64,000 nucleotides of DNA from Amoebophrya sp. A120 (taxonomy: Eukaryota; Protista; Dinoflagellata). The stretch covers positions 5,919,985 through 5,983,984 of the forward strand of contig CAJINV010000003.1 of NCBI GenBank assembly GCA_905178155.1, read 5' to 3'. The notes under the pieces are model-generated. The model made no database searches and was not told the origin of the DNA. It saw only the letters and a list, made by a program, of their open reading frames with translations. Shown here in pieces: positions 2,235-54,524 of the stretch. Within the stretch, counting starts at the first letter, position 1. Each line of letters starts with the position of its first letter. Both the position numbers and the translations under genes were made by a program.

Positions 2235-2517
2235 AGTAGAGCTGTCGCGCACCCCGCAGAGCCGTTTCGCCCCGCCGCGAATTTAGTGTCCCAATCCCGC
2301 CGGGCTAAAACTGCGCTTTCGGAGAAACGGGGACCCGAGATTCCCAGAAACCGCGGCTACAGCTCGGCGGGTTAAGGACTTCTTTTCTCCAAAATCCAAA
2401 CAACGACGTGAATCGCTACTCGGAAGCGGCGACTTTTCCTCCTTAGAGTAGTGCAGCGCAGAGGTCCGCCAGAATCAACCGGAACCTGCTGTGAACAAGC
2501 GGCTGCAGAAACGCGGC

Positions 2518-33886: not shown

Positions 33887-36800
33887 TCAAAAGTACTCTT
33901 TTCCTTCTTGATTCGCGGCTTGGTCCTGACCATGGTAAGAGCCGCCTCCTGGAATCTGCCACATGTGGTCGCTTCCATTCCAGTTTGCCCGTTGCGGGTA
34001 CAGGGGATGATGTGGCTGGCCCTGTTGCGGCTGGGTTTGCTGAAGCTGATATCCCCCCATTTGCTGCCAGTGGCCGTGCTGTGGTTGACCGGGTTGGGGC
34101 TGCTGATGGTCATACGCAGCCGGATTCTGCATCATGGAACCGTTTTTATTGAATACCGGCTGACCTCCGCGGTTCCCCGCAGTTTGTTGCATGTGCGCTG
34201 CTCCACCGGGGTGCTGGCCGTACATTTGCATGTGCTGTTGATGCTGCTGCATTTGCACGGTCGTTCCAGGGTGTTGTTGCGGAGCAGCAGATTGTAGTTG
34301 GACAGCACTACTGGCTCCTGGGTGCGGTTGGGGGTTCTGATACATGTTGTATCCCGCGCCGGCTGGCGCGCCGCCTTTATTCATGATATTTCCGCTGTAC
34401 AGGTCAACAAAGCCATTCGTCGGGTCCGGCTGCTGCATTTGGCCTGGCGTACCCGCCCAACTTGGGTTCTGTCCAGCAACTGCACCTCCGGGTGGAGGAC
34501 CCCCTCCGTAGGGACCTGGTCCGGCAAAGGGAGCGCCCTTGTGCTGCTGATGTTGCTGCGCACCGTCGAAAAATGGGTGAAAATCTCCGTTGCCCGTCCC
34601 CGGCGCATGAGCATGCTGAGGACCCCCTTGGTTGGCGTTGGGGTGCGGTCCACCCATCAAATTGTGGTACTGCTGGTGTTGAAGTTGGCCACTGTGGTGC
34701 AGCGAGCCTTGTTGCGCTACAACCTGAGGACCTCCACTACGCTGGTGCTGGTTCTGAGGGTGCATTCCACCAGTGCTGCTGTAGGCGTGTGGGTGCTGCT
34801 GGTGGTCTACTCCTTGACTACTACTGCTGCTTCCCCCTTGTCCATTGTTGCGATGTTGCGCGGCCAGATGGAGTTGGTCCCCTGCGTTCATCGTTCCCGC
34901 ACCCTGTGAGCTGTTGTGCGGTTCGCCTAGATGGTGCTGGTGTGCCGATCCGCTGCCTCCGTGCTGCGAGGTCGTGGCCGTACTCAGATGTGTGTTCGCG
35001 CGCGAAAGGTTGAAGTTGTTATTGGAGGACGTTGCGGCCGATGCGGCGGAAGTTGAGTCCATGGACTCCATGCGGAAGCGGTTGCCCGGGTGATGCATTT
35101 TTGCGCTGTTTGGAGGACCCCCGTGCAGGTGATGTTGCCCTCCACCACCGCCCCGGGCGAGATGACCACCTCCACCGCCGGAGCCATGATGGTGGCTGTT
35201 GTTCATCATGTTGGTCCCTCCACCTTGCGGGTTGATGTTGTTTCCCCCGCTCATCATCACCGTGGAGCTGCTGTTGATGTTTGGAGGTCCGCCGGTACTA
35301 CTAGGCAGCAAGGTGCTACCGCCGCATTTCCCACAACCGAGCTCGAAGTCTGGGCGGCCCGCGACCAAGTGGGAAAAGGAGAGCCGCATCTTCGGCAGGC
35401 AGTGCCCCGTGTTCCAGAGGTGGGACAGCGCTTTCGCGTGCACCTCCATGCCGGGGCGCGTGGCGAACGTGTCCTGCAGCGTCTGTGTGACATCTCGCAT
35501 GCGCAGCAGCGGTTTTTGCCGGGGCAGTGGGTCGTACACGCGCGCAAACGTGGGTTCAAATTTCACTTCCTGCTGCCAGTTGTACGTGTCCGGCAGCGGG
35601 CTGTGGAAAGAGTTGATCGCATCGTCCAAGAAGTCCAGATCGACCTCCGCCTCATCGCAGGTACTGCTGTCGTCCTCGTGCTGAAGGTTCTGCTTGTGAT
35701 GTTCCTCCAAAAAGGAGCGCACGCGGAGCGCGGCAGCCGCGTCCGGCACCGGTTTCGGGCGGAACGCGAGGTCCTCCGGCTCCCGGGCGTGAAACGCGGT
35801 GTTCAGGAAGTCTTCTGACCCATACTCTTCAGACAGAGCGAACAGACCCACAGATTGGGGGTCCTCTGGCAGTTCCGCTATTTTTAAACTGGCTTTTTTC
35901 TCGCTCATTTCCACCATGTGGCCTTCTTCTCTTGCACTTTTAGGCCGTGCTGAGGTAGACACTTCGCTACTGTGTTCCTGCTCGTCTTGCTGATTTTCAG
36001 ATGAAGTATTCAAGCGGTCCTGTTGTGCGGCTGTTTTTTTGTCTTCTGGTGCGTCGCCGTCGGCACGACGGTGAGCCCCTTGCTGTTCATCTACGGATTT
36101 ACCTTGTGCGACTAGAGCGACAGTAGAATGCGCTCCTGTTCCGACAGTTTCAGCCACTTCTTCTTCTCCGGAGGAGGAATCGCCACGGCCAACCGCGGAT
36201 GGGCAGGAACTACCTGATCCATTATGTTCTACCTGGTCTACTGGCGTTGTACTGCCGAAGGAGTCAATCGGAGAACTGCCCTGGAGTTGTTCTTTCTTTG
36301 CTCGTGGCTTGGTCACTTTCGGTAGCAAATGGTAGTACAAGCAGAGCCCGCGAAGCAACAGCACCTCGCTTCCGGTCTGATACATCACGCCGCGCTCGTA
36401 CGTGGAGTCGAATCGGTTCTCCGTTTTCATCAGCTGTCCAAAATCCCACACGCCCGTTGCCATGGCACCTTTGTTTTTCCAGTTGTTGCTCATGTCCATC
36501 GTAGCAAAGGGGCCCTGGAATGTGAGCACGGGAAGACGATTTTGACCATTCGTGAGCTCGTGGTGCTGAACCAGGCGGCGGACGCTGTTTAGATTGATTG
36601 AAGGACGATCGCCAACGTGCAAACAAGACCAGTACCGTAATGCGTAAACTCGAGCAGCAGTAGGGACGCACCACATGCGCGACGTTAATACGTCTTCACA
36701 GAATCTTGATGGGGGCTCTTGGCATATTGAAGTGGACTTTAGGCTAAAGTAGGTACTGTAGACACATGAAATCAAACGTAAACCAAACCGTTCTTGGATT

Positions 36801-39294
36801 TCCACAGCTGGGAACAACAATGAGTGAGAGTCTCCGGACGAGGATTCGCCTTGCATTCTTCGCTGCAAACTCGGCGAGAAGAGCAGGTGCTTGAGGTCTA
36901 CACGGCTGGGAAAGTTGGCGACGACGGACGTTTGAAAGCCCTGGACACTCGCAGGGAGCTTCAAACTCGGCGCCAGCGCTTGGGTCAGGAAGGCAAAATC
37001 CCGTTGGCTGTCGAAAGAAACCCACGTCAAGTGATCCCTGGGCATCGTTTTCAGCATCTCGCCAAACGCCTTCAAAGTGATTCCCTCACTCTGGTGTCGC
37101 CACCAATTGATCGAAGTCCGCTCGTTCCAGAATCGTGCAGTTTCTGCGTCATGCTTGTCCTGCAAGGAACAACAGATGAAATTCTTTATCGCAATTTTTC
37201 CAAAACTTTTACATTCTACGAGGAACGTCGATAGGGAGACCACAGCCCGAATCAGGTAAAAAATCTCACATGATTGAAACTCCCTTGAGAAGAACTTTGG
37301 CACTCTGAGCATTATACCAGCGTAGACTCGCGATCTGAGTTCAATTCCAAGGCCGATTTACCGGGGTGCGTGACGTGAAAGAGGTCACTGACTTCCGTTT
37401 TGTCGCGGAGATCTCGGGTCCAGTCGAAATGAAACAAGACCTGCCAGACCAGCGGCAGCCATTCCTTCGTAGCTCGCGGGAGGTTCATGCTTTCTTTGCC
37501 CGGAATGTTCAGGTCTTCGCCCGTAAAGCAAAAGGACAACTGCAGCAGCTTGCTTTCATATTCGTTCACGTTAGTTCGCACCGTCGAGTAGTTCTGCACG
37601 TTGGCAGGAATCGTGGGCTTGTAGTTCTTCGACGTAGAAGTTCGTTGTTCATCTTCATGATCTCCTCGTCCCACTTCGTGCAGCTTGTCCCCCGCTGGTG
37701 TTCTTGTAGAGTCTTGTTGTCCACCTCGGGCGGGCACCATAGGAACATCACCGGCCGGCGCGCCACCGTCCGTCTCTGCATCGACGTGCTCCGGGTCCGG
37801 CGAAGGAAAAAAGCCGTTGACATGCTGCCACCCCGAGGCCATCGAAGAAACAAAGCAGTACTTGGCACGGGACGCGGTGTAGTTTATCAGCTGGAACTCG
37901 ACTTCCAGGTTTTTCGTGGTTACCTCGCGGACATTCAGCCGCCGCAAAAACCGCTGGCGCAGCTTGCCGTGAGAAGCGCGGTCTGCTTGCTTCTTGTCAG
38001 CGGCTGCCCGTGCTGCCGCATCTTCCTCCGGGCACGACGACCTGGTTGTAGCCGCGGTGGTACCTCCACCTCCTCCCGAGGCAGCAGTTGTACTGGCACC
38101 GGTGCAGGAGTCGTCCTGCTGATGATGTTTCTGCTGCTCTAGTACTGAAGCAGCGGAAGTTGGTGCTTTCTCTGGGGGTTTTAGGACTGTCTCAGAAGCA
38201 TTGTTGTCCTCGGCGTTAACCAGGTCGTCCTGACCTTCTTGAGCTTGACCGCCGGTGGTCTCATCAGGATTTTTCCCCTCGTCCTTGTTGTCGCCCCTGG
38301 CGGGCCAGCCTGTATCGGCGCCAGCGGTCGGGTCCTGATTCAGATCCTCCTCCATGGAAGCGTAGCGGGTCCGCCGTCTGGTTTCCAGCGCGCTCACGAA
38401 CTCCGCGTGGTCCCACTGATCGTCCTGACTTACGATATGCAAGAAAAAAGATTGTCAGTGTAGCTTTGTGATATTACGCAACATGATATCAGGAGGCTGC
38501 GTCTGTCATGCTGGTCATGCAGCTTGCAGGGTCCATGTCCATGATTGATAAGATCATGCGCGTTTTCACGTTCTATTTGCGCATGACAGGTTTTTGCTAT
38601 CATGCCAGACACATTTGTGACGCAGCTACACTTCCACACGACTTTTTTTCTTCGATACACGACAAACAGCTCGCATATGGGGCTCTCAAACGTTACATTC
38701 TCAACTGTTACATGATTTGTCATGCAAAATGACCATGACCCGCCAGACTATCAAACTGCTTCGCATGACAAATGGCCGGAGGGCTAAATAGCACTGTACT
38801 CCGCACCAAACCTGTAATGCAAGACGCGCAAGGGTCTCCCTCTCACCTGTGCTAGTCTTGCATTACAAATTCATGCAACAGTTGAGAATGTAACGTTTGA
38901 GAACGCCATATCGCAGTCCTCGTCGTCCCCGGTCTTCGCTGCAGCTCGCCGGCGTGCCTACGTTCTATTGAGAGGCAAAATCCCCCCTCCCCATATCGAA
39001 AAGGTATGTTTTCAAAAATTTGTGTTGCGGATTTGAGGCCACAAATCGCATCTGTCTTGCAAGAAGACAACTCCATAGGCTCTGCCGCATTATGCAGGCG
39101 GTTTGTGATGCTCTTGGGCCTACAGCATAGTCGTTTTTCATGCAAGGCGCCTAGGCCAAAAGCTCTCTACTCAGGCTTTGCAGGAGCCTGCAGTCCTCTA
39201 CTGCAAGACATACCTGATTTGTATACGCAAATCCAGCATCAGAAACTTCCTTTTCGATATGGGGAGGGGGGATTTTTCATTTTGATACGTTCAT
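33887..39294 (-). CDS. CAF1: Divergent CAF1/POP2 (CNOT7/8-like, DEDD fold) CCR4-NOT subunit with a long Q/G/H-rich C-terminal tail; multi-exon
   Basis: Caf1-like segments: VREVTTKNLEVEFQLI, NYSTVRTNVN..KLLQLSFCF, VWQVLFHFD, GITLKAFGEML, WVSFDSQRDFAFL, FPSRVDLKHL, YQTGSEVLL. The 5' exons read MNVGTPASCSEDRGRRGLRAVCRVSKKKS|QDDQW after removal of three elements. Intron at ~37160-37374; a probable in-frame intron near 36600-36820. Confidence 0.8.
38432..38639. other. Non-canonical intron, probably a decayed introner
   Basis: Direct repeat GACTT at 38427-38431 and 38640-38644; residual IR agtgtagct/agctacact; several GCATGACA/TGTCATGC motifs. Confidence 0.6.
38676..38910. mobile_element. Introner, family D-related, 235 bp, in the CAF1 5' region
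   Basis: ~50-bp imperfect IR (tatgg..ctcaaacgttacattctcaactgtt); TSD TCGCA at 38671-38675 and 38911-38915. The empty site is seen in the upstream array copies. Confidence 0.92.
38966..39287. mobile_element. Introner, family B, 322 bp, just after the CAF1 start codon; copies at 40014-40335, 41062-41383 and 46079-46400
   Basis: IR aaaatcccccctccccatatcgaaaagg / ccttttcgatatggggaggggggatttt; TSD CGTTC. The empty site cctacgttcatg is seen in other array copies. Confidence 0.93.
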
Positions 39295-39456
39295 GCGCTT
39301 GATTCATTTCCACGAGAGAAACGTTTTAGCAATGAGAGAATGCTGCATAACTTGACACTACGCAGTTGGTAGCAGTAGTCAGTTAGAGAGAGTGGCATAA
39401 TCTCTACAATGACTAGCTAAAAGTCAGAAAACCCATTATCTAATAGTATCCCGCAA

Positions 39457-39665
39457 TAAAAACAAAGAATAGAAACGAAAAACAAAAACAAAGAATGGAA
39501 ACGAAAAACGAAAACAAAGAATGGAAACAAAAAACGAAAACAAAGAATGAAAACAAAAAACGAAAACAAAGAATAGAAACGAAAAACAAAAACAAAGAAT
39601 GGAAACGAAAAACGAAAACAAAGAATGAAAACAAAAAACGAATAGAAACGAAAAACAACAACAAC
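39457..39665. repeat. 26-bp A-rich minisatellite (aaaacaaagaatRRaaacRaaaaacR); copies at ~40505-40713 and ~46570-46882
   Basis: Visible tandem units. The third copy is 104 bp (4 units) longer. Confidence 0.9.
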
Positions 39666-39699
39666 GAAATGCAGACAAAGTGCCCAAGCTTCTAAGCGG

Positions 39700-39927
39700 C
39701 GAAGCCTCGAAACGATGAGGCCTCGAAACGCCGAAGGAAGCAGCGAAGCCTCGAAGCAGCGAAGCGTCGAAGCAGCAAAGCCTCGAAGCAGCGCAGCCTC
39801 GAAGCCGCGCAGCCTCGAAGCCGCGCAGCCTCGAAGCAGCGAAGCCTCGAAGCAGCGAAGCCTCGAAGCAGCGGAGCCTCGAAGCACCGAACAAGCAACG
39901 AAGCCTCGAACAAGCAGCGAAGCCGCG
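39700..39927. repeat. 8-bp-unit minisatellite (gaagcctc/gaagcagc); copies at ~40748-40975 and ~46917-47144
   Basis: Alternating gaagcctc and gaagcagc units are directly visible. Confidence 0.9.
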
Positions 39928-42485
39928 AACTTTTTTTCTTCGATACACGACAAAGAGCTCGCAGTCCTCGTCGTCCCCGGTCTTCGCTGCAGCTCGCCGG
40001 CGTGCCTACGTTCTATTGAGAGGCAAAATCCCCCCTCCCCATATCGAAAAGGTATGTTTTCAAAAATTTGTGTTGCGGATTTGAGGCCACAAATCGCATC
40101 TGTCTTGCAAGAAGACAACTCCACAGGCTCTGCCGCATTATGCAGGCGGTTTGTGATGCTCTTGGGCCTACAGCATAGTCGTTTTTCATGCAAGGCGCCT
40201 AGGCCAAAAGCTCTCTACTCAGGCTTGGCAGGAGCCTGCAGTCCTCTACTGCAAGACAAACCTGATTTGTATACGCAAATCCAGCATCAGAAACTTCCTT
40301 TTCGATATGGGGAGGGGGGATTTTTCATTTTGATACGTTCATGCGCTTGATTCATTTCCACGAGAGAAACGTTTTAGCAATGAGAGAATGCTGCATAACT
40401 TGACACTACGCAGTTGGTAGCAGTAGTCAGTTAGAGAGAGTGGCATAATCTCTACAATGACTAGCTAAAAGTCAGAAAACCCATTATCTAATAGTATCCC
40501 GCAATAAAAACAAAGAATAGAAACGAAAAACAAAAACAAAGAATGGAAACGAAAAACGAAAACAAAGAATGGAAACAAAAAACGAAAACAAAGAATGAAA
40601 ACAAAAAACGAAAACAAAGAATAGAAACGAAAAACAAAAACAAAGAATGGAAACGAAAAACGAAAACAAAGAATGAAAACAAAAAACGAATAGAAACGAA
40701 AAACAACAACAACGAAATGCAGACAAAGTGCCCAAGCTTCTAAGCGGCGAAGCCTCGAAACGATGAGGCCTCGAAACGCCGAAGGAAGCAGCGAAGCCTC
40801 GAAGCAGCGAAGCGTCGAAGCAGCAAAGCCTCGAAGCAGCGCAGCCTCGAAGCCGCGCAGCCTCGAAGCCGCGCAGCCTCGAAGCAGCGAAGCCTCGAAG
40901 CAGCGAAGCCTCGAAGCAGCGGAGCCTCGAAGCACCGAACAAGCAACGAAGCCTCGAACAAGCAGCGAAGCCGCGAACTTTTTTTCTTCGATACACGACA
41001 AAGAGCTCGCAGTCCTCGTCGTCCCCGGTCTTCGCTGCAGCTCGCCGGCGTGCCTACGTTCTATTGAGAGGCAAAATCCCCCCTCCCCATATCGAAAAGG
41101 TATGTTTTCAAAAATTTGTGTTGCGGATTTGAGGCCACAAATCGCATCTGTCTTGCAAGAAGACAACTCCACAGGCTCTGCCGCATTATGCAGGCGGTTT
41201 GTGATGCTCTTGGGCCTACAGCATAGTCGTTTTTCATGCAAGGCGCCTAGGCCAAAAGCTCTCTACTCAGGCTTGGCAGGAGCCTGCAGTCCTCTACTGC
41301 AAGACAAACCTGATTTGTATACGCAAATCCAGCATCAGAAACTTCCTTTTCGATATGGGGAGGGGGGATTTTTCATTTTGATACGTTCATGCGCTTGATT
41401 CATTTCCACGAGAGAAACGTTTTAGCAATGAGAGAATGCTGTATAACTTGACACTACGCAGTTGGTAGCAGTAGTCAGTTAGAGAGAGTGGCATAAGCCC
41501 CACTTGCCCGCACAGGAAAGACAGAGAAAAGCCCTCAAAACCCGCAAGAACAGTCCTACTCCAGGACGCGCAAACACGCTACCTAGAGCGACCCCTCGAC
41601 GTGCAGCGTCTCACTACCGCAGCTACTGAAAACCCTTAAAGCGCACCGAAAAGAACAAGCGTGCGAAGGTCGTACAGACAAATCTTTGCCCTTCCTAGCT
41701 CGAAGCAAGGGCTTCTAGAGAATTCCCCGTCCGCGAAAGATCGTCTGTCCGGTGATACAAACAACCGCAGCGCAAGCTCCGGCTCGGCTGCGCGGACAAT
41801 GAAAAATTCTGAGGACCTACCCAGGGAAAAACCGAGCGCAAACGTGTCGGCCTCGTGCAACGGGTCCCCAAGACCACACAAGGGAAGACGCTCCGGCTAT
41901 TGACGCTTCCGGAGAGAAAACGCAAATGAAAAAAGGGCGACAACATGCAAACGAACGAAAGAAAGTCCCCAGGTGGACCGGAAAGACGTGACGTGACTAC
42001 TGGCGAGGTGTGGCAACATCGCGGGGCAAAAAGTGCCAAAATCCCCTTCCATTCATAGGAAAACCAGCGCAAGCGGTCGTAGAAAATGATAGCGAATGCT
42101 CAACCGAGAAAACACTGCGGACCGGGGTGTGGCAAACGACAGGGGGAAGGACAGGAGCAGCTCTAGAGGGCCCAGAAAAGGTAGGCCTAGAGGAAGAAAA
42201 AGCAACGCTCCGTCGCCCCCGGAGTAGAAAGTCAAACAAGCCTGTCTCAACAGACAAACAGCTCGCAGTCCTCGTCGTCCCCGGTCTTCGCTGCCTGGAG
42301 TAGAAAGTCAAACAAGCCTGTCTCAAATGCCGCGCCCGGCCAAAAATCAAATTCCACTGCAGACAAACCACGGGAGCGCCCCGGCTTGAAGCCAAATCCG
42401 TAGAGAAAAGCAAGTGCGATCCAGCAAAACACCCACGCAAGCATAGGTCAAGGAAGGGCTGGCCGCCCGAACGCTTAGTATCTCC

Positions 42486-45400
42486 TGCATCATGTGTAAA
42501 TCCGAACCAACAAAGCCAAAAGAACAGCTTATTCGCGAACACTAGCACACGGCGCGAACAGAGAGAATCCAAAACCCCACCTCTGTGAGCACGGTAAACT
42601 TCCAGACCTAAGTACCTCCCAAGAGCAGACCGCCGATGGACGAGGACTCATCTCGTCCAACTGAAATTACACACAAAGCCCGTCCCTTACTGGGCGGCAA
42701 AGAAGCCTCGCGGAAAACCAAAGCAGAAAAGTTACTTCCTCAGAAGAGCAAAGGAGCCTATCGGTATCAACCCTGATTCAGAGTGGCAAACCACCTCCCC
42801 ACCTGGGGAATTCACTTCATATGAAGCCAGCAACCCAACACAGAGGCGAGGCACGCACCTGGCGTGAATGCTGTTCCCACGACAGCTACAAAGCAAGGGA
42901 TCCGCCTCAAGCGGGCCGCGCAGCCACTAGACCAGAGCGAACAGCGGGCGATCCCCGAGCACGTCAGGCTCCATCATGCCGGCGAGTGTGACGTGGCTAC
43001 CCCCAGAACCATCACCGCCGTGATGAACGATAGCGCGCCCACCTACTGACACTGAGCGTAAGCCTCGGCCAACCGCGCCTCTAAACCTAAAGGGAAGACA
43101 CAGATAAGGTGGCGTACGCATGAAGAGTAAATCAGAGAAAGCGCAGCCACGCATAAAGAGCAGCCACGCGTGGCACGTGCTAACACCTCATCCGAGAGCC
43201 GCGTAACCATACCGAGACGAAACGCCGCCCAACCCCGAGCGATTCTTGTCGATATATCCGACCAGAGGAACACTTAGTGCGCGAAGAAGCGGCGAAGGTT
43301 GCGTCCTACCCCCAAGCCAAGTGCTACGGACAAATCCCCTGCAGAGCGAAACGGTCTAGCAACCGGCGGCGCAAAAATCCGCAAGCCAACGAGCTCCAAA
43401 CTCCGGAAACGGCCCCCCGCATGGGAAAACAGGCACAGAGTTGGCGGCAGGGCAGCGCTGAGGCCCCCCAGGAGGCCCTCCAAAAGCCGGAAAAACTACG
43501 ACAGTAGATGCGTCCTGGCCCAGTTCCCTTCCGGAGAAAATGTCGCTAATAGAAAAAGACAAAGAGCTCGCAGTCCTCGTCGTCCCCGGTCTTCGCTGCA
43601 GCTCGCCGGCGTGCCTACGTTCATGAAATGAAAATAACCAAGGTCAGAATGACGCCCCTTGTCGAATACAACGGAGCAAAACCTTGCAAGTAGACCTCGA
43701 GAAAGAAGCCTGCAATAGCAAGCACACCTCGAAAATGAGTAATAAAGTGAGACCCACAAGAAAACCAAAGCCGGCAGAAGCCGGAAAATAGAGTAGAAAA
43801 GCAGCCTGCAGCTAGGCCCTGAAATCCTTCTCCGCACCCGGGAGAACCTGGGACAATAGACTTCTCGCCCTCACAAGTGGAAATCCAAGAGAACCCACTC
43901 CCCGAGCGGGGAGAGTGGAGAAACCCCCGAAGAAACGGCATAAACGCGGCTGATGCTCCCTCACCAGCACGAGAGATGTGTGGCGATAAACTGCAGGACT
44001 GAAACACGCTCGCTGAGTGACGCAAGGGGGATACTCCGACTTGTACGGGAAAAGCGCGAATGCGAAATCAAGCAGAAACTCACTCCGCCATCACAAACGG
44101 ATGCGGAAATCAAATAAAATCGACCCCGAAGGGGAAATGGATTCCCGACTGTCTCCTCGCAAGGGGGGAATAGGGGGCCACTCCCTGTCGTCCCCGGTCT
44201 TCGCTGCAGCTCGCCGGCGTGCCTACGTTCATGCGCTTGATTGTGAAGTGCAGTGAAGTGAATATGCAATGTCCAGGTTCTCCTTGGGATTCTAGGATTG
44301 CCAGGGTGTGGACCAGAATCAGTAACCAAACCGGCAGGGGGGAACAAGGTTCTCACAGTAGGTTGCCAGGGAGGCGAGCCGGGCCCAGGCCCACCGGGAT
44401 GGTGGCGGGACAAGCGGTCGACCCCGAGGAACTGTGTGAGGCAGACCAGGTTCCTATTTAACCCCCCTCCCTTCCGACACCGATGGGTGGGGGCGGGCCG
44501 GTCAGGAGGACCGACAGCGCACCGTCCTCAGGGGGGGAAGCAAGGCGATAAGGTGATCCAAAACACTACCCCCAACCGAGAACAGAGATTCCTGCACTGA
44601 TTTTTTGACCGTCAGGTCGATTGGGTACGGGTAGGCGGGATGAAGAAGAACGCATGACAAAAGAGAGCAGCTCCCGGGTGGGAGGGAAATCCAGAGCGGG
44701 CAACGTCCATCATGGGTGTCCCGCGCGCTTGTGCATGTCATGCAACGCAATTGATTTTCCGAAACCTACTTCAAAACAAAACGCACACACAATGTGGGGA
44801 GGACAAGCACCTGGCAAAAGATATGCCCTGGTGGATACGTCAGCCCATGCATGCCTTGAGCTAGACAAGCAGCGTCAACATGCATCGACGAGAGAGTCCG
44901 GAAAATCAACAGCCGCCACTCCCTAACAAGTTGCAGGAGATGCACAGCGCATATTCTGGAAGAAATCACGCAAGGCAGGGAACGAGGGTGGGGAGGGTGA
45001 CGGAGGGCTACTCCATGGGCAAGGGCCAGATACGGACACAAGACCTGGCAAGGCTGAATAGACTGGGCGAGGCAACAAACAGCTCGCAGTCCTCGTCGTC
45101 CCCGGTCTTCGCTGCAGCTCGCCGGCGTGCCTACGTTCATGCGCTTGATTTCGATGCGTTCCTTCCGAGTGTTATCCAGAGCAAACACCCAAGCGGCCCG
45201 TTGGACCGCGCCTGATGGGGCTGGGCGAAGCAGGCCGGGCCCAGCTTCCGTAGCGGGGTCCGGCCCACTCCACCACCACCTGGCCCCCAGGGCAAGACCC
45301 CCCAGAACCCCACCTCCGGTGGTTGAATGGGGGGAAACGCGCCAGCCCCAGCCCCACTTGCCCCCACGGGGAAGACAGGCAACCGACCGAAGCCATCCTG

Positions 45401-46078
45401 CAAAACATGCTAAACGGCAGCACAAAGACGCTCGGCAGCAAAACATGCTAAACGGCTGCAAAACATGCTAAACGGCAACCTCCGGACGCCGCTCGGCGGG
45501 GCTCAAGAGCTCGAAATCTTCCAGCAAGAAAAATAACCCGAGAGAGAGGGCGGAAAGGAACCGTGGCGCAGAATCCGAACAAAACAATGACTACAGACCA
45601 CGAGTTGGTGGACCGATGGGTGGGACAGACTGGCTCGGCCTGGGAAAGGACACAACGAGCAGCAAGCTAAGAAAACAATGGACCCCCACCATCCGCGGGG
45701 TGCCGCCAAAAACTCGCTTACCCGCCCTACCGAGGGTTCCCTTCTCCTCAACAACCCAGCTCGAGGACTGGTTGAGGCGGACCCTAATCGAGTCGCCGCC
45801 CCCAGGCAACCAGATAGGCAAACATCCCCCTGCCCCCACCATGGGCAAACGCAAGCGAACAAACAAAACTAGAGCCCCACTCAATGGGAACAGAGGACGA
45901 AACGTAGACACTGAACCGCCGGCCATAGCCTGGGGACAAGTTCGCAAGGGTAACGGATTGGATACCGCCAGTGCCAAACGACCCCTGTTCCCGAAGCAAG
46001 GCGGGACCGAAGTAGAGCAGAGCTCGCAGTCCTCGTCGTCCCCGGTCTTCGCTGCAGCTCGCCGGCGTGCCTACGTTC
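42486..46078. repeat. 3.6-kb direct repeat; second copy at 47232-50824 (offset 4746)
   Basis: All spurious ORFs recur at +4746. Only isolated SNPs were seen (anchor gcagtcc>gcggtcc near 48318 and gcagctc>gcatctc near 49863). Confidence 0.95.
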
Positions 46079-49000
46079 TATTGAGAGGCAAAATCCCCCC
46101 TCCCCATATCGAAAAGGTATGTTTTCAAAAATTTGTGTTGCGGATTTGAGGCCACAAATCGCATCTGTCTTGCAAGAAGACAACTCCACAGGCTCTGCCG
46201 CATTATGCAGGCGGTTTGTGATGCTCTTGGGCCTACAGCATAGTCGTTTTTCATGCAAGGCGCCTAGGCCAAAAGCTCTCTACTCAGGCTTGGCAGGAGC
46301 CTGCAGTCCTCTACTGCAAGACAAACCTGATTTGTATACGCAAATCCAGCATCAGAAACTTCCTTTTCGATATGGGGAGGGGGGATTTTTCATTTTGATA
46401 CGTTCATGCGCTTGATTCATTTCCACGAGAGAAACGTTTTAGCAATGAGAGAATGCTGTATAACTTGACACTACGCAGTTGGTAGCAGTAGTCAGTTAGA
46501 GAGAGTGGCATAATCTCTACAATGACTAGCTAAAAGTCAGAAAACCCATTATCTAATAGTATCCCGCAATAAAAACAAAGAATAGAAACGAAAAACAAAA
46601 ACAAAGAATGGAAACGAAAAACGAAAACAAAGAATGGAAACAAAAAACGAAAACAAAGAATGAAAACAAAAAACGAAAACAAAGAATAGAAACGAAAAAC
46701 AAAAACAAAGAATGGAAACGAAAAACGAAAACAAAGAATGAAAACAAAAAACGAAAACAAAGAATGAAAACAAAAAACGAAAACAAAGAATAGAAACGAA
46801 AAACAAAAACAAAGAATGGAAACGAAAAACGAAAACAAAGAATGAAAACAAAAAACGAATAGAAACGAAAAACAACAACAACGAAATGCAGACAAAGTGC
46901 CCAAGCTTCTAAGCGGCGAAGCCTCGAAACGATGAGGCCTCGAAACGCCGAAGGAAGCAGCGAAGCCTCGAAGCAGCGAAGCGTCGAAGCAGCAAAGCCT
47001 CGAAGCAGCGCAGCCTCGAAGCCGCGCAGCCTCGAAGCCGCGCAGCCTCGAAGCAGCGAAGCCTCGAAGCAGCGAAGCCTCGAAGCAGCGGAGCCTCGAA
47101 GCACCGAACAAGCAACGAAGCCTCGAACAAGCAGCGAAGCCGCGAACTTTTTTTCTTCGATACACGACAAAGAGCTCGCAGTCCTCGTCGTCCCCGGTCT
47201 TCGCTGCAGCTCGCCGGCGTGCCTACGTTCATGCATCATGTGTAAATCCGAACCAACAAAGCCAAAAGAACAGCTTATTCGCGAACACTAGCACACGGCG
47301 CGAACAGAGAGAATCCAAAACCCCACCTCTGTGAGCACGGTAAACTTCCAGACCTAAGTACCTCCCAAGAGCAGACCGCCGATGGACGAGGACTCATCTC
47401 GTCCAACTGAAATTACACACAAAGCCCGTCCCTTACTGGGCGGCAAAGAAGCCTCGCGGAAAACCAAAGCAGAAAAGTTACTTCCTCAGAAGAGCAAAGG
47501 AGCCTATCGGTATCAACCCTGATTCAGAGTGGCAAACCACCTCCCCACCTGGGGAATTCACTTCATATGAAGCCAGCAACCCAACACAGAGGCGAGGCAC
47601 GCACCTGGCGTGAATGCTGTTCCCACGACAGCTACAAAGCAAGGGATCCGCCTCAAGCGGGCCGCGCAGCCACTAGACCAGAGCGAACAGCGGGCGATCC
47701 CCGAGCACGTCAGGCTCCATCATGCCGGCGAGTGTGACGTGGCTACCCCCAGAACCATCACCGCCGTGATGAACGATAGCGCGCCCACCTACTGACACTG
47801 AGCGTAAGCCTCGGCCAACCGCGCCTCTAAACCTAAAGGGAAGACACAGATAAGGTGGCGTACGCATGAAGAGTAAATCAGAGAAAGCGCAGCCACGCAT
47901 AAAGAGCAGCCACGCGTGGCACGTGCTAACACCTCATCCGAGAGCCGCGTAACCATACCGAGACGAAACGCCGCCCAACCCCGAGCGATTCTTGTCGATA
48001 TATCCGACCAGAGGAACACTTAGTGCGCGAAGAAGCGGCGAAGGTTGCGTCCTACCCCCAAGCCAAGTGCTACGGACAAATCCCCTGCAGAGCGAAACGG
48101 TCTAGCAACCGGCGGCGCAAAAATCCGCAAGCCAACGAGCTCCAAACTCCGGAAACGGCCCCCCGCATGGGAAAACAGGCACAGAGTTGGCGGCAGGGCA
48201 GCGCTGAGGCCCCCCAGGAGGCCCTCCAAAAGCCGGAAAAACTACGACAGTAGATGCGTCCTGGCCCAGTTCCCTTCCGGAGAAAATGTCGCTAATAGAA
48301 AAAGACAAAGAGCTCGCGGTCCTCGTCGTCCCCGGTCTTCGCTGCAGCTCGCCGGCGTGCCTACGTTCATGAAATGAAAATAACCAAGGTCAGAATGACG
48401 CCCCTTGTCGAATACAACGGAGCAAAACCTTGCAAGTAGACCTCGAGAAAGAAGCCTGCAATAGCAAGCACACCTCGAAAATGAGTAATAAAGTGAGACC
48501 CACAAGAAAACCAAAGCCGGCAGAAGCCGGAAAATAGAGTAGAAAAGCAGCCTGCAGCTAGGCCCTGAAATCCTTCTCCGCACCCGGGAGAACCTGGGAC
48601 AATAGACTTCTCGCCCTCACAAGTGGAAATCCAAGAGAACCCACTCCCCGAGCGGGGAGAGTGGAGAAACCCCCGAAGAAACGGCATAAACGCGGCTGAT
48701 GCTCCCTCACCAGCACGAGAGATGTGTGGCGATAAACTGCAGGACTGAAACACGCTCGCTGAGTGACGCAAGGGGGATACTCCGACTTGTACGGGAAAAG
48801 CGCGAATGCGAAATCAAGCAGAAACTCACTCCGCCATCACAAACGGATGCGGAAATCAAATAAAATCGACCCCGAAGGGGAAATGGATTCCCGACTGTCT
48901 CCTCGCAAGGGGGGAATAGGGGGCCACTCCCTGTCGTCCCCGGTCTTCGCTGCAGCTCGCCGGCGTGCCTACGTTCATGCGCTTGATTGTGAAGTGCAGT

Positions 49001-50965
49001 GAAGTGAATATGCAATGTCCAGGTTCTCCTTGGGATTCTAGGATTGCCAGGGTGTGGACCAGAATCAGTAACCAAACCGGCAGGGGGGAACAAGGTTCTC
49101 ACAGTAGGTTGCCAGGGAGGCGAGCCGGGCCCAGGCCCACCGGGATGGTGGCGGGACAAGCGGTCGACCCCGAGGAACTGTGTGAGGCAGACCAGGTTCC
49201 TATTTAACCCCCCTCCCTTCCGACACCGATGGGTGGGGGCGGGCCGGTCAGGAGGACCGACAGCGCACCGTCCTCAGGGGGGGAAGCAAGGCGATAAGGT
49301 GATCCAAAACACTACCCCCAACCGAGAACAGAGATTCCTGCACTGATTTTTTGACCGTCAGGTCGATTGGGTACGGGTAGGCGGGATGAAGAAGAACGCA
49401 TGACAAAAGAGAGCAGCTCCCGGGTGGGAGGGAAATCCAGAGCGGGCAACGTCCATCATGGGTGTCCCGCGCGCTTGTGCATGTCATGCAACGCAATTGA
49501 TTTTCCGAAACCTACTTCAAAACAAAACGCACACACAATGTGGGGAGGACAAGCACCTGGCAAAAGATATGCCCTGGTGGATACGTCAGCCCATGCATGC
49601 CTTGAGCTAGACAAGCAGCGTCAACATGCATCGACGAGAGAGTCCGGAAAATCAACAGCCGCCACTCCCTAACAAGTTGCAGGAGATGCACAGCGCATAT
49701 TCTGGAAGAAATCACGCAAGGCAGGGAACGAGGGTGGGGAGGGTGACGGAGGGCTACTCCATGGGCAAGGGCCAGATACGGACACAAGACCTGGCAAGGC
49801 TGAATAGACTGGGCGAGGCAACAAACAGCTCGCAGTCCTCGTCGTCCCCGGTCTTCGCTGCATCTCGCCGGCGTGCCTACGTTCATGCGCTTGATTTCGA
49901 TGCGTTCCTTCCGAGTGTTATCCAGAGCAAACACCCAAGCGGCCCGTTGGACCGCGCCTGATGGGGCTGGGCGAAGCAGGCCGGGCCCAGCTTCCGTAGC
50001 GGGGTCCGGCCCACTCCACCACCACCTGGCCCCCAGGGCAAGACCCCCCAGAACCCCACCTCCGGTGGTTGAATGGGGGGAAACGCGCCAGCCCCAGCCC
50101 CACTTGCCCCCACGGGGAAGACAGGCAACCGACCGAAGCCATCCTGCAAAACATGCTAAACGGCAGCACAAAGACGCTCGGCAGCAAAACATGCTAAACG
50201 GCTGCAAAACATGCTAAACGGCAACCTCCGGACGCCGCTCGGCGGGGCTCAAGAGCTCGAAATCTTCCAGCAAGAAAAATAACCCGAGAGAGAGGGCGGA
50301 AAGGAACCGTGGCGCAGAATCCGAACAAAACAATGACTACAGACCACGAGTTGGTGGACCGATGGGTGGGACAGACTGGCTCGGCCTGGGAAAGGACACA
50401 ACGAGCAGCAAGCTAAGAAAACAATGGACCCCCACCATCCGCGGGGTGCCGCCAAAAACTCGCTTACCCGCCCTACCGAGGGTTCCCTTCTCCTCAACAA
50501 CCCAGCTCGAGGACTGGTTGAGGCGGACCCTAATCGAGTCGCCGCCCCCAGGCAACCAGATAGGCAAACATCCCCCTGCCCCCACCATGGGCAAACGCAA
50601 GCGAACAAACAAAACTAGAGCCCCACTCAATGGGAACAGAGGACGAAACGTAGACACTGAACCGCCGGCCATAGCCTGGGGACAAGTTCGCAAGGGTAAC
50701 GGATTGGATACCGCCAGTGCCAAACGACCCCTGTTCCCGAAGCAAGGCGGGACCGAAGTAGAGCAGAGCTCGCAGTCCTCGTCGTCCCCGGTCTTCGCTG
50801 CAGCTCGCCGGCGTGCCTACGTTCATGCGCTTGATTCATTTCCACGAGAGAAACGTTTTATCAATGAGAGTGAGAATGCTGTATAATTTGACACTACGCA
50901 GTTGGTAGCAACAGTCATTTAGAGAGAGTGGTATAATTCTAGAACACATGATGAATTTTTTCTAC

Positions 50966-53540
50966 TCAGACCAACAACACGGTCACGGAATCAAGAGATA
51001 CCTGCTCGCTCATCCAGGCCTGTAAACTGGCAGGCCGCGCTGCGAAAGTGCCAGAACCAGCCGGCGAGTCGGGAGAAGAGGACTCTGGACCGCGTGATGA
51101 CGTTGATGTCTCTCCTGAGGGAAAATAAACAACGTCCCTAGCCCAGCTGAAAAATGCTTGCACGATGCCCCCCTCCGAAACGGGGCTGACGCTGCTCGCG
51201 GGCGAAACGGTTCGACTGGAAATCTTCCGCAGCTTGCGCAGTTCGTGCCGTTTCTCCAGCAGTGCTAGCCGATTTCCGGCGTTTTTGAAGCGGAATGTTT
51301 CGATGGTGGACGTGGCCGTTGGCGGCGACTTTCCGTCGCGATGATCTTGGACAGAAGTCGCGTTTTTTGCGCTCAGACTCAGCCAGCGCGCCACGTCGTC
51401 GTCTTCCTCCGAGAATTCGGCTGACTTGAAGACCTCCTGCCATTTCGCTTGCAACGCGCTGAGCATGTGTTCTACGACCGCTTTTATGCGTACATCCAGT
51501 ACCGCGAGCTGGACACCTAACCACTCCTGCCAAGTCAGCCGGGCTTCTTGTCGTCGCCGAGCTGGAAGCCCACCCGCCGTCGTCGGGACAAAGGGCGCGG
51601 CTCGACGACCTTGAAAACGTGGTTTGTGGAGGTTAGACTCCGTGTCTCTTCGAAGATTTTCACTGCATGCAATCCTCGGGAACTACGGCTGCGTTCGTAT
51701 ATTGCAACAAGAACTACAACTCGGCGGCTACTCTCCAAGCGAGACGAGCTACGTACGTACACAGTGGGGATGAAATTTCTAAAAAACTATCATCTATAAA
51801 AATTTTCTATACGAGCTAGGAGGAGCGTGAAGGGATCCTCGCCGTTGCGACTCGCTCGGCAGGCTTCGCGAAAAGAGGCCTTGTCAGCGGCAAAGCCGAT
51901 GCAGATGGAAAGGATGGAGAGCAGAACAGCCAGAATCACGAAGGCCACACGCTCTCCGCACTTGCGGACCTTGGCCCTCGCGCCTACCGTGCACGAACTG
52001 CCTTTTTTCATGGTAAGTCCAGGCGTTATTTGCGTCTGCGCGTAGTCCTGCTCCATCACCCCGCCGCCGCCCAACTGGATAATTATCGGCTGCTCCTCGG
52101 GGTCGTCCCCACCACCCATTTCCGGGTCGGTGCTCGGCTCGGCAATCTGCAACACAATGTCGCCTCCTATGCCGGCAGTGGCCTGTTGGATCATCTCGTG
52201 CAGTTGCTCGCTGATCACGATGCCTCCGTCCTGAGTTATGGTAACGGCGGACGCAGGGATGTGCACGATCGTCGGGCCGCCAGTCGGGAGAAGAGTTCCA
52301 CCTGCTACGCCGCCGCCCCCAAAAAGTGGAACCTGTTGCGACATCGCTGGATCTGGAGTTCTATTGCCTGCCGCGGAAGCCAGATCGAACGCTGCCCCCA
52401 AACTCGGATCATCCAAGGCGGAGGGGAGAGGCGCCGCCGCAAACTCAAGAGGGGGAAGGGGCCCTTCGGGAAACCAAGCTTCATTTGTGGACGCCCCAGG
52501 AGCGGGATCAGTTCCTGCCAGAGGAGGTTGTGCTGCATCTTCTGAGTTCTTCTTGTTCTCGGCCTGTAGTTCTTGTTCCTGCCTTTGCGCAATCGTGTAG
52601 GACGAACAGGAACCGCAGAAGTAAGAAGCGACGAAGCGAACGGGCAGAACGCCAAGGGACCGCGTGCTGGAGACTATCACGGCAGAGCCGACAAGAATCC
52701 CGATGAGAACTGCACAGAAGGAGACCAGAGGGCGCGCTCTTTTCTTGGTCATCAGGACCGCCAAGTCGCTTGTGCCTGCGTGAGTCGGTCGGAGCCCCTT
52801 GGACGCGCTGAGCATGGTGCTGCGCGGAAATGGCAGACGGATTGATGTTGACGGGGAAGATGAAGATGTTGCTCCGAACGAGGCTGCAGCTGCTGGTCCC
52901 GAAGGAGCGCCCGATGTTGTAAGGAGCTGGTGTCCGCCTCCGCTGCTGGCCGTGGAATTGCTGTCCAGGAGGCTAGTACCGGTCGCCGCCAAGGGAGGTG
53001 GGCCCAGTTGCCCCAAGCCACCTCGAGCTCTACCTAGTGCTACCGAAGAACCGGACATTGACGCGGGCCCCGGAGGCGCGGGAACGCCCGGTCGCTCCTG
53101 CCCACCCAAAACCTTTGCCAGATGAACCGGCCGGGTGGCCATCCGCTGGGCGAGCAAACTTTTTGCGGTGCCAGATGCTGCGCCCCGTGCAATTCGTCGT
53201 GTGAGTTTCGAGGCGGCGGGGGCGGCAGCGCCACCTGAGTGTCGTGGGTGCTTTGTGCCGTAACGTTTGTCCAAGCGGAGAAAAAAGTACGAGGACCGCA
53301 GACTGAAGTTGCTCTCAATAACTCTACCTGCGAATCGTACAACTTGCATATGCATATATTAGCAGGATTCTGTTCGTGTTCTTGGAATGTGAAGATCATG
53401 GTCATGCATACAAAACAAAGGCACGTATTAAGGGCACCTGCTCCACTACCGGCCGCAGGCTCGTCGCCATTGTTCGAAAAACCGTCCGAGGTAGAGCTAC
53501 TCGATACCGATACCTCCTCAGGATTTGGCACAGTGGTCAT
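50966..53540 (-). CDS. Hypothetical membrane protein (two TM segments); exons 53540-53438, 53234-51813, 51609-50966
   Basis: GT-AG introns 53235-53437 and 51610-51812 join three ORFs in frame (GAG|GAAAP; LLAR|RRAAP). Hydrophobic helices LVSFCAVLIGILVGSAVIV and VAFVILAVLLSILSICIGF. Confidence 0.72.
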
Positions 53541-54524
53541 GATTTTTGTTCCCAAGACGGAGCCGTGGCAGGGGAGCGGTTGTCCTTAAAGAGCAGGTGT
53601 TTGTTGTTCATCGTGACACCAACGCGGCCGCACACGGACATAGTTTATTTATCTATGTTTTCTCTATAACTAGATCTTCATCTGCCTCTGCAACGTCGAT
53701 GTCTTTCTGCTTCTCAATTTCCGAAGCTACATCTGCAGCGCATTGAATTTAATTATGTCTGGAGACGAAGAACTGCTTAGAAAAGTTCTACCAGTACTTC
53801 TCCCATGTCTTGCTACGTATTGGTCCATACTCAATGCTTGGCGTTATTTCATGCAGCCAAAACAGCCATAAACAGTGACGAAAGGTTAAAAACGCAACCG
53901 GAACGATGTTACGTATTTCTAACTACGGCCATATTTCTAGCAAGCTCAGAGCTGCGGCTGCGGCATGTAGGCAGCATGGCCATGGTATTTCAACTTGTCC
54001 TTGCCGCTTTGTGACACTACTTCCCGATAATTCATCTCAGGTATGCCGAAGAAGGCAAACTCTATGATGTCGTGGGCCAACATTTTATCTTCGCACTTTT
54101 GCAAAACTCAGGTCCTACTCGTTGAAAAAGAGAACAGAAAACTCACAAAGAAGCGAAGCAGACACGAACACACAAAGGCAAAGCTCAAGTAGACGAGCTT
54201 GATGCCGATTTGGTGTGCTAATGCTAGATAGCGGTAGCACTAGCACTTACTGTTTTCTGAAAGGAAGTTTCAATTATAGATGGAAGCGTTCGATGAGAAA
54301 GGATGCGCGTCGCAAAGGAGATCGCCATGAAAACTTGTCATCTGTCGTGTGGATCTATGAGTTCAAATTAGGTTCGGTTGCGATATGAAGACAAGCATTA
54401 GAGCCAGAAAACGACTTCGTCCATCTCCATGTCGTCCGCCTCGAGCCAGGAGGCGATTCTATCTAGCAGTTTACATTTTTTCCCGAGAGTTTTTCTGCTC
54501 GCTCAACCTGTGGTCGTGCCAGCC

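What the first reader, a model, noticed from the sequence alone, without database searches (positions are those of the whole stretch)
38641..50936. Repeat-and-cassette array built on a host gene's own first exon (CRISPR/integron-like architecture in a eukaryote)
Seen: 12 extra same-orientation copies of the CAF1 5' segment (minus strand: ...ATGAACGTAGGCACGCCGGCGAGCTGCAGCGAAGACCGGGGACGACGAGGACTGCGAGCT...) are separated by largely unrelated non-coding cassettes. The cassettes are S1 39401-39928, S2 41497-42252, S3 42295-43557, S4 43626-44186, S5 44243-45074 and S6 45151-46018. Their order is S1,S1,S2,S3,S4,S5,S6,S1,S3(part),S4,S5,S6. The anchor core is almost invariant, while its ends vary by a few to a few tens of bases. 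This is not a simple satellite or segmental duplication: foreign DNA was repeatedly joined to one fixed ~60-bp sequence. Inference: a site-specific acquisition locus, either through repeated insertion with long target duplication or through templated repair/RT template jumping. It is not a CRISPR: there are no cas genes and the spacers are far too long.
Basis: partly seen in the sequence, partly recalled or inferred. Interest (0 to 1): 0.92.

Follow-up and report, generated by a model that had tools for sequence, protein, structure and literature searches.

The report
Insertion trap at a splice acceptor
In a marine parasite (likely Amoebophrya), about five unrelated pieces of repeat DNA sit at one intron-exon border of a gene, each between long copies of that border, and assembled transcripts lack the whole 12-kb pile and keep one exon copy; it is likely a retrotransposon landing spot that splicing makes harmless, not a CRISPR-like memory.

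Summary
The array is real: 13 same-orientation copies of a 42-198-bp host segment separate cassettes S1-S6. The anchor is not a first exon. Spliced contigs of three likely-RNA runs (2 samples, 1 study) join an upstream exon (51002) to one anchor copy and on into the weakly CAF1-like gene, in frame. The anchor is an intron's 3' end plus a 58-nt internal exon, and the array lies in one 12,044-nt GT-AG intron with 11 extra copies of the acceptor. Cassettes are non-coding and lack terminal repeats. S4, S5 and S6 have relatives elsewhere in the genome, and S2 and S3 are one interrupted element. The junctions fit five insertions with 51-198-bp target duplications, not polarised, followed by unequal crossing-over. 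Best mechanism: trans-mobilisation by LINE machinery at a preferred nick; break repair is the main rival. The element orientation is unresolved. DNA depth supports two copies of S3 and S6 but not of S4 and S5. Earlier notes of this scan report similar long-duplication stacks elsewhere in this genome; the duplicated acceptor is what this locus adds.

The parts
33890..38435 (-). Downstream exons of the host gene (weakly CAF1/POP2-like)
   Evidence: ORFs; PF04857 E=0.012, below cut-off; RNA contig loose end matches 38405-38434
38436..38657 (.). Old introner 'int0' (TAT...ATA, duplication TACGA/CACGA), absent from the transcript; S1's right anchor carries 18 nt of its end
38658..38957 (-). Anchor copy 1: the 58-nt internal exon, split by young introner A (38676-38910, 5-bp duplication TCGCA); A is absent from the transcript and from the other 12 copies
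   Evidence: RNA contigs carry the C allele of this copy
38958..51001 (-). 12,044-nt GT-AG intron that contains the whole array (donor CAG|GTATCT at 51001; acceptor placed at copy 1 by inference)
   Evidence: joint with CT..AC ends in X3 and X6; loose ends in X4
38966..39287 (.). Introner B (TAT...ATA, duplication CGTTC), 8 nt from the acceptor; also in copies 2, 3 and 8 (40014, 41062, 46079)
39288..39401 (.). Long duplicated intron flank (+59..+171); also 40336-40449, 41384-41496, 46401-46514; 6-7 substitutions and a 4-nt indel against the native copy, all beyond +94
39402..39928 (.). Cassette S1 (minisatellite-rich; copies 40450-40976 and a longer one at 46515-47145); duplication -26..+171
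41497..43557 (.). Element E = S2 (41497-42252) + anchor copy 4 (42253-42294, no acceptor) + S3 (42295-43557), with an exact 30-nt overlap across copy 4; its start is related to S6
   Evidence: X1 depth 27.5 for S2, near single copy
43626..44186 (.). Cassette S4; duplication about +11..+61; a diverged relative is present in DNA and likely-RNA contigs
44243..45074 (.). Cassette S5; duplication -5..+70; inner part has diverged relatives
45151..46020 (.). Cassette S6; duplication +1..+70; both end blocks belong to a many-copy family with a sharp left end
   Evidence: summed contig depth 852-1074 at the ends against 24-28 for single-copy DNA in X1
46021..50766 (.). Second unit: copy 8 + introner B + S1' + copy 9 + S3part (47235-48303) + S4 + S5 + S6; 47229-50824 repeats 42483-46078
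   Evidence: the X1 unitig breaks where the duplication starts and has depth 46.5
50767..51001 (-). Anchor copy 13 with the intact native 185-nt intron (50817-51001)
51002..53700 (-). Upstream exons of the same transcript, with two ordinary 203-nt GT-AG introns
   Evidence: joints 51607-51811 and 53231-53435 in X3; frame open for 1067 aa across the array

Best explanation
One intron-exon border of a host gene carries five distinct non-coding inserts, each between copies of 51-198 bp of that border, likely left by repeated insertions made in trans by a LINE-type endonuclease and reverse transcriptase at a preferred nick and then likely multiplied by unequal crossing-over, and the spliced transcript lacks all of it. 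Shown: the repeats, the junctions, the spliced product with one exon copy, and relatives of S4, S5 and S6 elsewhere in the genome. Inferred steps: (1) one cut falls at the exon's downstream end, mostly at ACACG^AC, and the other 50-200 bp away inside the intron, so each duplication spans the acceptor AG. (2) The gene-proximal copy therefore keeps acceptor and full exon, the insert becomes intronic, and each new copy is a fresh harmless target. (3) Crossing-over between anchor copies made the S1 tandem and the 3.6-kb duplication and homogenised the cores. (4) The 12-kb intron is likely spliced to copy 1 after introner B is removed, either skipping 11 identical acceptors or using them as AG|GC ratchet points; these data cannot separate the two.
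For: One exon copy, with the C allele and continuing into the gene, in contigs of X3, X4 and X6; joint ends CT..AC; reading frame open for 1067 aa. 12 of 13 copies keep the acceptor; the exception lies inside element E. Right junctions of 4 of 6 cassettes (3 of 5 events) lie within 1 nt of the two ACACG^AC sites of the target (binomial p 0.003 to 0.0003; motif chosen after seeing the data). Left junctions come in pairs: +170/171, +70/+70, about +61/+61. All six cassettes have the same strand bias (AT skew +0.26 to +0.73), the bias of sense strands in this window. The five inserts fit pure target duplication in 3 of 120 orders. S4- and S6-family sequences occur in likely-RNA contigs from other loci. 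An RT+RNase H LINE lies in the window, with a possible (CAAA)n tail that resembles the ACAAAC junctions of S2 and S5. Long duplications by LINEs are published: R9 126 bp, Dualen median 900 bp (PMC9977147, passages).
Against: No cassette matches the window's LINE, so no mobiliser is identified. No poly(A) tail or common tail marks either end. Orientation signals conflict: strand bias, the right-hand motif and the left-truncated S2 point to 3' ends on the right, whereas an S4-family contig in X3 starts at S4's left end and runs 493 nt past its right end, S6 has a sharp left end, and S4 and S5 have short repeats at their left ends. The order test is weak: 1575 of 7200 shuffled junction sets (22%) also allow an order. 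No empty site was seen in any strain. X1 depth for parts of S4 (18.8) and S5 (22.3) is single-copy although the window has two copies. The RNA label of X3, X4 and X6 is the tool's guess, and they come from 2 samples of 1 study.
Confidence: 0.5

Rival explanations
1. Break-repair scars: a fragile spot, perhaps nicked by the introner transposase (three introners lie within about 75 bp of native sequence), was repaired repeatedly by synthesis that switched to repeats elsewhere and back, duplicating part of the site each time.
For: Element E is interrupted by a 42-nt piece of the target with a 30-nt re-copied overlap, a template-switch signature. There are no tails, and the cassettes look like fragments of longer repeats (X3 contig runs 493 nt past S4). 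Junctions cluster beside the end of introner int0 and the site of introner A. Templated insertions at breaks are published (PMC11724301, search listing and abstract start only).
Against: All inserts share one strand bias (1 in 16 by chance for five events). Junction positions recur to the base in unrelated cassettes (S5/S6 at +70; S2/S3/S5 at -5/-6), which suits enzyme-defined cuts. An RT with RNase H can also jump templates and leave an overlap of this size (inference).
Confidence: 0.33
2. The second unit (46021-50824), or its S4-S5 part, or the S1 tandem is over-expanded in the assembly; the true array is shorter.
For: Copies are 99.9-100% identical. X1 and X2 depths over parts of S4 and S5 are about single-copy (X1 18.8 and 22.3 against 23.9; X2 48.4 and 38.7 against 48.7 for S2).
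Against: S3part has twice the single-copy depth (46.5 against 23.9) and its unitig starts exactly where the two units diverge. The S6 middle is 1.6x (X1) to 1.9x (X2) and the anchor-S6 junction 2.2x. The units differ at 3 sites and in S1 repeat number. This rival changes copy number only, not the five-insert structure.
Confidence: 0.12
3. All cassettes are pieces of one transposable element scrambled in a single event.
For: S2 and S3 are contiguous, and S2 is related to S6.
Against: No other cassette pair overlaps or aligns on the same strand (z below 2 for the other 8 of 10 pairs among S2-S6). Their abundance in DNA runs differs about 40-fold. The long flank has diverged 6-7 substitutions plus an indel from the native copy while introner A came later, so the events are spread in time.
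Confidence: 0.04
4. A CRISPR- or integron-like acquisition locus that stores foreign DNA in polarised order for a function.
For: Repeat-spacer look; inserts come from selfish DNA, and the intron is transcribed antisense to their A-rich strand, which could in principle feed small-RNA silencing (inference, untested).
Against: No polarised order fits. Repeat ends vary by up to 150 nt. No Rfam match of note and no enzyme gene at the array. Three 21-22-nt cassette patterns found nothing in viral contigs (exact-match, weak).
Confidence: 0.02

Closest known systems
Retrotransposon hot spot (RHS) genes of Trypanosoma with Ingi/RIME insertions (PMC7563717, passages read)
   Same: One site in a protein-coding gene collects one or more LINE/SINE-type elements; later unequal crossing-over and conversion.
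   Different: RHS insertions make pseudogenes in a multigene family, and their duplications are about 12 bp (recalled, not from a call). Here the gene yields an intact mRNA, duplications are 51-198 bp and include a splice acceptor, and no autonomous element is in the array.
LINEs with long target duplications: rotifer R9 (126 bp) and Chlamydomonas Dualen-4b (median 900 bp) (PMC9977147, passages read)
   Same: Duplication length far above the usual few bases.
   Different: Those flank recognisable LINE copies. Here they flank unrelated non-coding pieces, stacked at one single-copy site; neither was described, in the passages read, as duplicating a splice site.
Intron gain by tandem duplication of an AGGT site (Hellsten et al. 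2011, PMC3265369; abstract and Discussion read)
   Same: Duplicating an AG|G-Y junction lets splicing remove the intervening DNA and restore the peptide.
   Different: Here the duplicated site is an existing acceptor (AG|GC), foreign DNA lies between the copies, and there are 12 copies of it. Whether the copies act as donors is untested.
Amoebophrya A120 introner elements (Farhat et al. 2021, PMC7789003: passages, sections 10-11, one supplement file searched; Gozashti et al. 2025, PMC12130899: passages)
   Same: int0, A and B fit them: TAT start, inverted repeats, 5-bp direct repeats; int0 and A are absent from the transcript. Gozashti et al. also attribute some A120 introners to non-LTR elements.
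   Different: The cassettes have no inverted ends and 10- to 40-fold longer direct repeats; the passages read describe no stacked long-duplication arrays.
Stwintrons (nested introns; PMC8469720, passages read)
   Same: Introner B sits between the likely branch region and the acceptor of the outer intron and would have to be removed first, or be bypassed.
   Different: The inner element is a non-canonical introner; two-step removal was not shown here.

Membership tests
CRISPR array | Constant-length 23-55-bp repeats with spacers of similar length | tested here: not met
   Repeats 42-198 bp with variable ends, spacers 0.5-1.3 kb
CRISPR array | Polarised addition at a leader | tested here: not met
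   0 of 3 (0 of 15 with tolerance) compatible orders is polarised
CRISPR array / integron | Dedicated integrase or cas genes beside the array | tested here: not met
   No such Pfam hit in the 19 segments scanned; not every ORF was scanned
Integron | Cassettes are ORFs with palindromic attC sites | tested here: not met
   Longest ATG ORFs 71-135 aa, no Pfam hit in 5 frames scanned; no inverted repeats at cassette ends
Amoebophrya introner (cassettes S1-S6) | Terminal inverted repeats, TAT...ATA ends, 3-5-bp direct repeat | tested here: not met
   End-to-end inverted scores 8-15 against 79, 58 and 21 for A, B and int0
Amoebophrya introner (A, B, int0) | TAT...ATA ends, inverted repeats, 5-bp direct repeat, removed from mRNA | tested here: met
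   A and int0 absent from RNA contigs; B lies inside the removed intron, so its own removal is not shown
Non-LTR retro-insertion (LINE/SINE, RHS-like hot spot) | Inserts flanked by target duplications at a recurrent site, one orientation | tested here: met
   (orientation judged by strand bias only)
Non-LTR retro-insertion (LINE/SINE, RHS-like hot spot) | Defined 3' end with poly(A) or short-repeat tail, 5' truncation | tested here: inconclusive
   No poly(A); signals for the 3' end point to both sides
Non-LTR retro-insertion (LINE/SINE, RHS-like hot spot) | Shared ends with an autonomous RT-encoding element | tested here: inconclusive
   No match to the one LINE in the window; no whole genome held
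tRNA- or ribozyme-derived SINE | tRNA/7SL/5S head or structured 5' RNA | tested here: not met
   ARAGORN 0 genes; Rfam only weak chance-level hits; three cassette ends fold no better than shuffles, z -0.5 to +1.0
Recursive splicing / stwintron | Stepwise intermediates at AG|GY ratchet points, or inner intron removed first | not testable with these tools
   Contigs drop rare forms; raw-read runs X9 and X11 gave 0 reads

The most novel reading that the evidence does not exclude
Amoebophrya has a retro-insertion pathway whose 50-200-bp target duplications copy a host 3' splice site, so that each insert becomes a recursively spliced GC-AG intron between zero-length exons. Splice acceptors then become self-renewing safe harbours that collect unrelated selfish DNA, and this 12-kb intron is removed in up to 12 ratchet steps.
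Probability: 0.15. Interest if true: 0.8.

Novelty: new variant of a known kind. Interest (0 to 1): 0.5.

Why it matters
The locus shows how very long target duplications can turn insertions at an exon edge into silent intronic DNA, and how one single-copy gene can become a repeated landing site without losing its mRNA. It is also a natural test case for 3' splice-site choice in an organism reported to lack a detectable U1 snRNA (PMC7789003, section 10): the donor has an intact native acceptor 185 nt away and ten more identical ones, yet the mRNA holds only one exon copy, whose 3' end comes from 12 kb away. It gives no support for a eukaryotic CRISPR or integron.

Tried and rejected
No whole genome is held, so cassette families could only be probed through public contigs. 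Rfam (five weak hits, all below gathering), ARAGORN and Pfam on five cassette frames gave nothing. Exact-pattern scans found 0 matches: S6 left end in metagenome contigs and viral contigs, S3 and S5 22-mers in viral contigs; weak negatives. No relative of the downstream exon in metagenome contigs (446 pattern matches, none confirmed), in the protein collection (longer proteins only) or in the PDB, so no empty site was found. The window's LINE has only distant relatives (23-32% identity) and no link to the cassettes. By-sequence look-ups in earlier findings gave nothing, nor did one word look-up. Rejected readings: anchor as first exon or start codon; anchor as spliced-leader or snRNA gene; cassettes as TIR introners, solo LTRs or tRNA-SINEs; ribozyme-like ends; exon taken from copies 2, 3 or 9 through the partial int0 end, because these carry G where the RNA has C.
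Full report
Observation. A 20-nt core occurs 13 times between 38923 and 50782, always on the same strand (family D6). Numbering the A of AGCTCGC at 50767 as +1, the copies begin at -26, -6, -5, +1, +4 (copy 1, beside introner A) or about +11/+15 and end at +35, about +61, +70 or +171. Two later duplications inflate the count: a 1048-nt unit (anchor, introner B, flank, S1) in tandem, and 42483-46078 repeated at 47229-50824 with 3 differences. S2 and S3 share an exact 30-nt overlap on either side of copy 4, so they are one interrupted element, E, and the start of S2 is 70% identical over 86 nt to an inner block of S6. Five distinct inserts remain: S1, E, S4, S5 and S6. Nothing in the array matches the rest of the window.

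Organism. Three elements at the gene-proximal copy have TAT...ATA ends, inverted repeats and 5-bp duplications (int0 38436-38657, A 38676-38910, B 38966-39287), as described for Amoebophrya A120 introners (PMC7789003, section 11). Earlier notes on this genome also name Amoebophrya. I obtained no sequence hit that names the organism, so the name rests on these two leads.

The anchor is not a first exon. In three runs that the tool guesses to be RNA (X3, X4, X6; 2 samples, 1 study), one long contig (7817, 7646 and 5788 nt; depth 38-47) carries a single 58-nt anchor. On one side it continues at window 51001-51002 and on the other at about 38434. The skipped part ends CT..AC on the + strand, that is GT..AG on the gene's strand. 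The X3 contig also lacks two 203-nt GT-AG introns upstream and matches 2294 exon bases with no difference, so it is spliced RNA of the same or a near-identical strain. X4 also holds a low-depth 152-nt contig identical to the low-copy middle of S6, which suggests that the array is present in those cells. A model of the spliced product is open for 1067 codons across the junction. The RNA carries C at position 0 and runs straight into the downstream exon, which fits copy 1 and excludes copies 2, 3, 5, 9 and 10 as the source of that end. The simplest reading is one 12,044-nt intron (38958-51001) that has grown from a 185-nt intron still intact at copy 13. Twelve of 13 copies keep the acceptor GAACGTAG|GCAC. 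The host gene is only weakly CAF1-like (PF04857, E=0.012; nothing).

The cassettes. They are non-coding (longest ATG frames 71-135 aa; no Pfam hit in five frames), have no terminal inverted or direct repeats, and show no tRNA or Rfam family. All are A-rich on the + strand (skew +0.26 to +0.73), the bias that sense strands show in this window. In DNA runs X1 and X2 (one sample, possibly the source of the assembly, so not independent) the two end blocks of S6 reach summed contig depths of 852-1074 in X1 against 24-28 for single-copy DNA, with many different flanks and a sharp left end at 49894-49896. The tool warns that such sums are no copy number, but they indicate a many-copy family. S4 and the inner part of S5 have diverged relatives, whereas S2 looks single-copy. 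S4- and S6-family sequences also occur in the likely-RNA contigs. At least three cassettes are therefore pieces of the genome's own repeats, not foreign genes.

History. Treating each insert as a pure target duplication (S1 198 bp, E 177, S5 76, S6 70, S4 51), 3 of 120 orders fit the junctions, all with S1 and E early and S5 before S4. None is polarised, also with 2 nt of tolerance (15 of 120). This fit is only mild support, since 1575 of 7200 shuffled junction sets also allow an order. Copy 13 and the long copies differ at 0 of 94 positions in +1..+94 but at 7 of 77 beyond (Fisher p=0.003), which points to conversion among the cores or to selection on more than one copy. Introner A is only in copy 1 and so probably came last. 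S3part is best read as a deletion derivative of E. Depth supports two copies of S3part (46.5 against 23.9, with the unitig starting where the units diverge) and of S6 (1.6x-2.2x), but parts of S4 (18.8) and S5 (22.3) look single-copy; sequence bias or an assembly over-count are both possible.

Mechanism. Four of six right junctions (three of five events) fall within 1 nt of the two ACACG^AC words in the 89-nt target window (p 0.003 to 0.0003, post hoc), and the left junctions recur in pairs. Recurrent cut positions, one strand bias and transcribed families favour trans-mobilisation by a LINE endonuclease and RT with widely spaced nicks. Duplications of this size are known from R9 and Dualen (PMC9977147, passages). 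An RT+RNase H LINE lies at 2452-9618 (relatives with AP-endonuclease domains at 23-32% identity), with a possible 14-bp duplication and (CAAA)n tail, but it shares no sequence with the cassettes. Against this reading: there are no tails, no partner element, and the orientation signals conflict (an S4-family contig runs 493 nt past the right end; S4 and S5 have short repeats at the left). The 30-nt overlap in E fits either an RT template jump or DNA repair synthesis. I give 0.5 to LINE machinery and 0.33 to break repair near introner ends. In both cases survival is explained the same way (inferred): the duplication spans the acceptor, the gene-proximal copy keeps a whole exon, and every other copy is an intronic decoy that can take further hits.

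Splicing question. How the donor passes an intact acceptor 185 nt away is open. Either only copy 1, which is followed by spliceable introner ends, is recognised, after or despite introner B 8 nt from its AG; or ligation at a copy recreates CAG|GCACGC as a GC donor and splicing ratchets along, as in intron gain by duplication of AGGT (PMC3265369, abstract and Discussion). GC-AG introns are 1% in A120 (PMC7789003 Table S4). Contigs cannot show the intermediates, and raw-read runs X9 and X11 gave no reads.

Comparison and novelty. It works like a trypanosome RHS hot spot (PMC7563717, passages) combined with long LINE duplications, but it leaves the mRNA intact. It fails the tests for CRISPR, integron and introner. 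Nine literature searches showed no description of stacked long-duplication inserts at a duplicated splice acceptor. The library lacks most subscription papers, and I did not see the supplementary figures of PMC7789003 or Dataset S2 of PMC12130899, which may list such elements. Earlier unreviewed notes of this scan report inserts with 35-76-bp duplications and stacks of them at other loci of the same genome. I could not check those loci; they are leads, and from two of them I took the break-repair rival. Verdict: real, a new variant of known retro-insertion hot spots, interest 0.5.

Noticed in passing
window 136-10057 (ORFs 2452-6192 and 6193-9618, +): Apparently intact LINE with RT and RNase H, only distant relatives; a 14-bp direct repeat at 136 and 10044, the right copy preceded by a (CAAA)4 run, may mark its ends.
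   Followed up: partly
window 11792-11941 and 58737-58886: Two 150-bp TAT...ATA introner-like elements with 5-bp duplications and related ends; four to five more in the window (14521, 16247, 30938 and others).
   Followed up: no
window 16247-17185: 939-bp TAT...ATA element with a second long inverted repeat inside (16442-16507 / 17058-17123), probably one introner nested in another.
   Followed up: no
window 38436-39287: Three introners of different ages within about 75 bp of native sequence around one 58-nt exon; B lies 8 nt from the acceptor.
   Followed up: partly
window 33890-53700: One 7.6-7.8-kb transcript joins the ORFs at 51790-53358, 50966-51682 and the CAF1-like ORFs, so these are one long gene with a large N-terminal extension.
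   Followed up: partly
window 39455-39930: S1 consists of a 13/26-nt A-rich minisatellite followed by an 8-nt repeat; the copy at 46515 has four more 26-nt units.
   Followed up: no
S6 family: A likely-RNA contig joins the S6 left block to its right block, skipping 695 nt: the family has internally shorter members with conserved end blocks.
   Followed up: no
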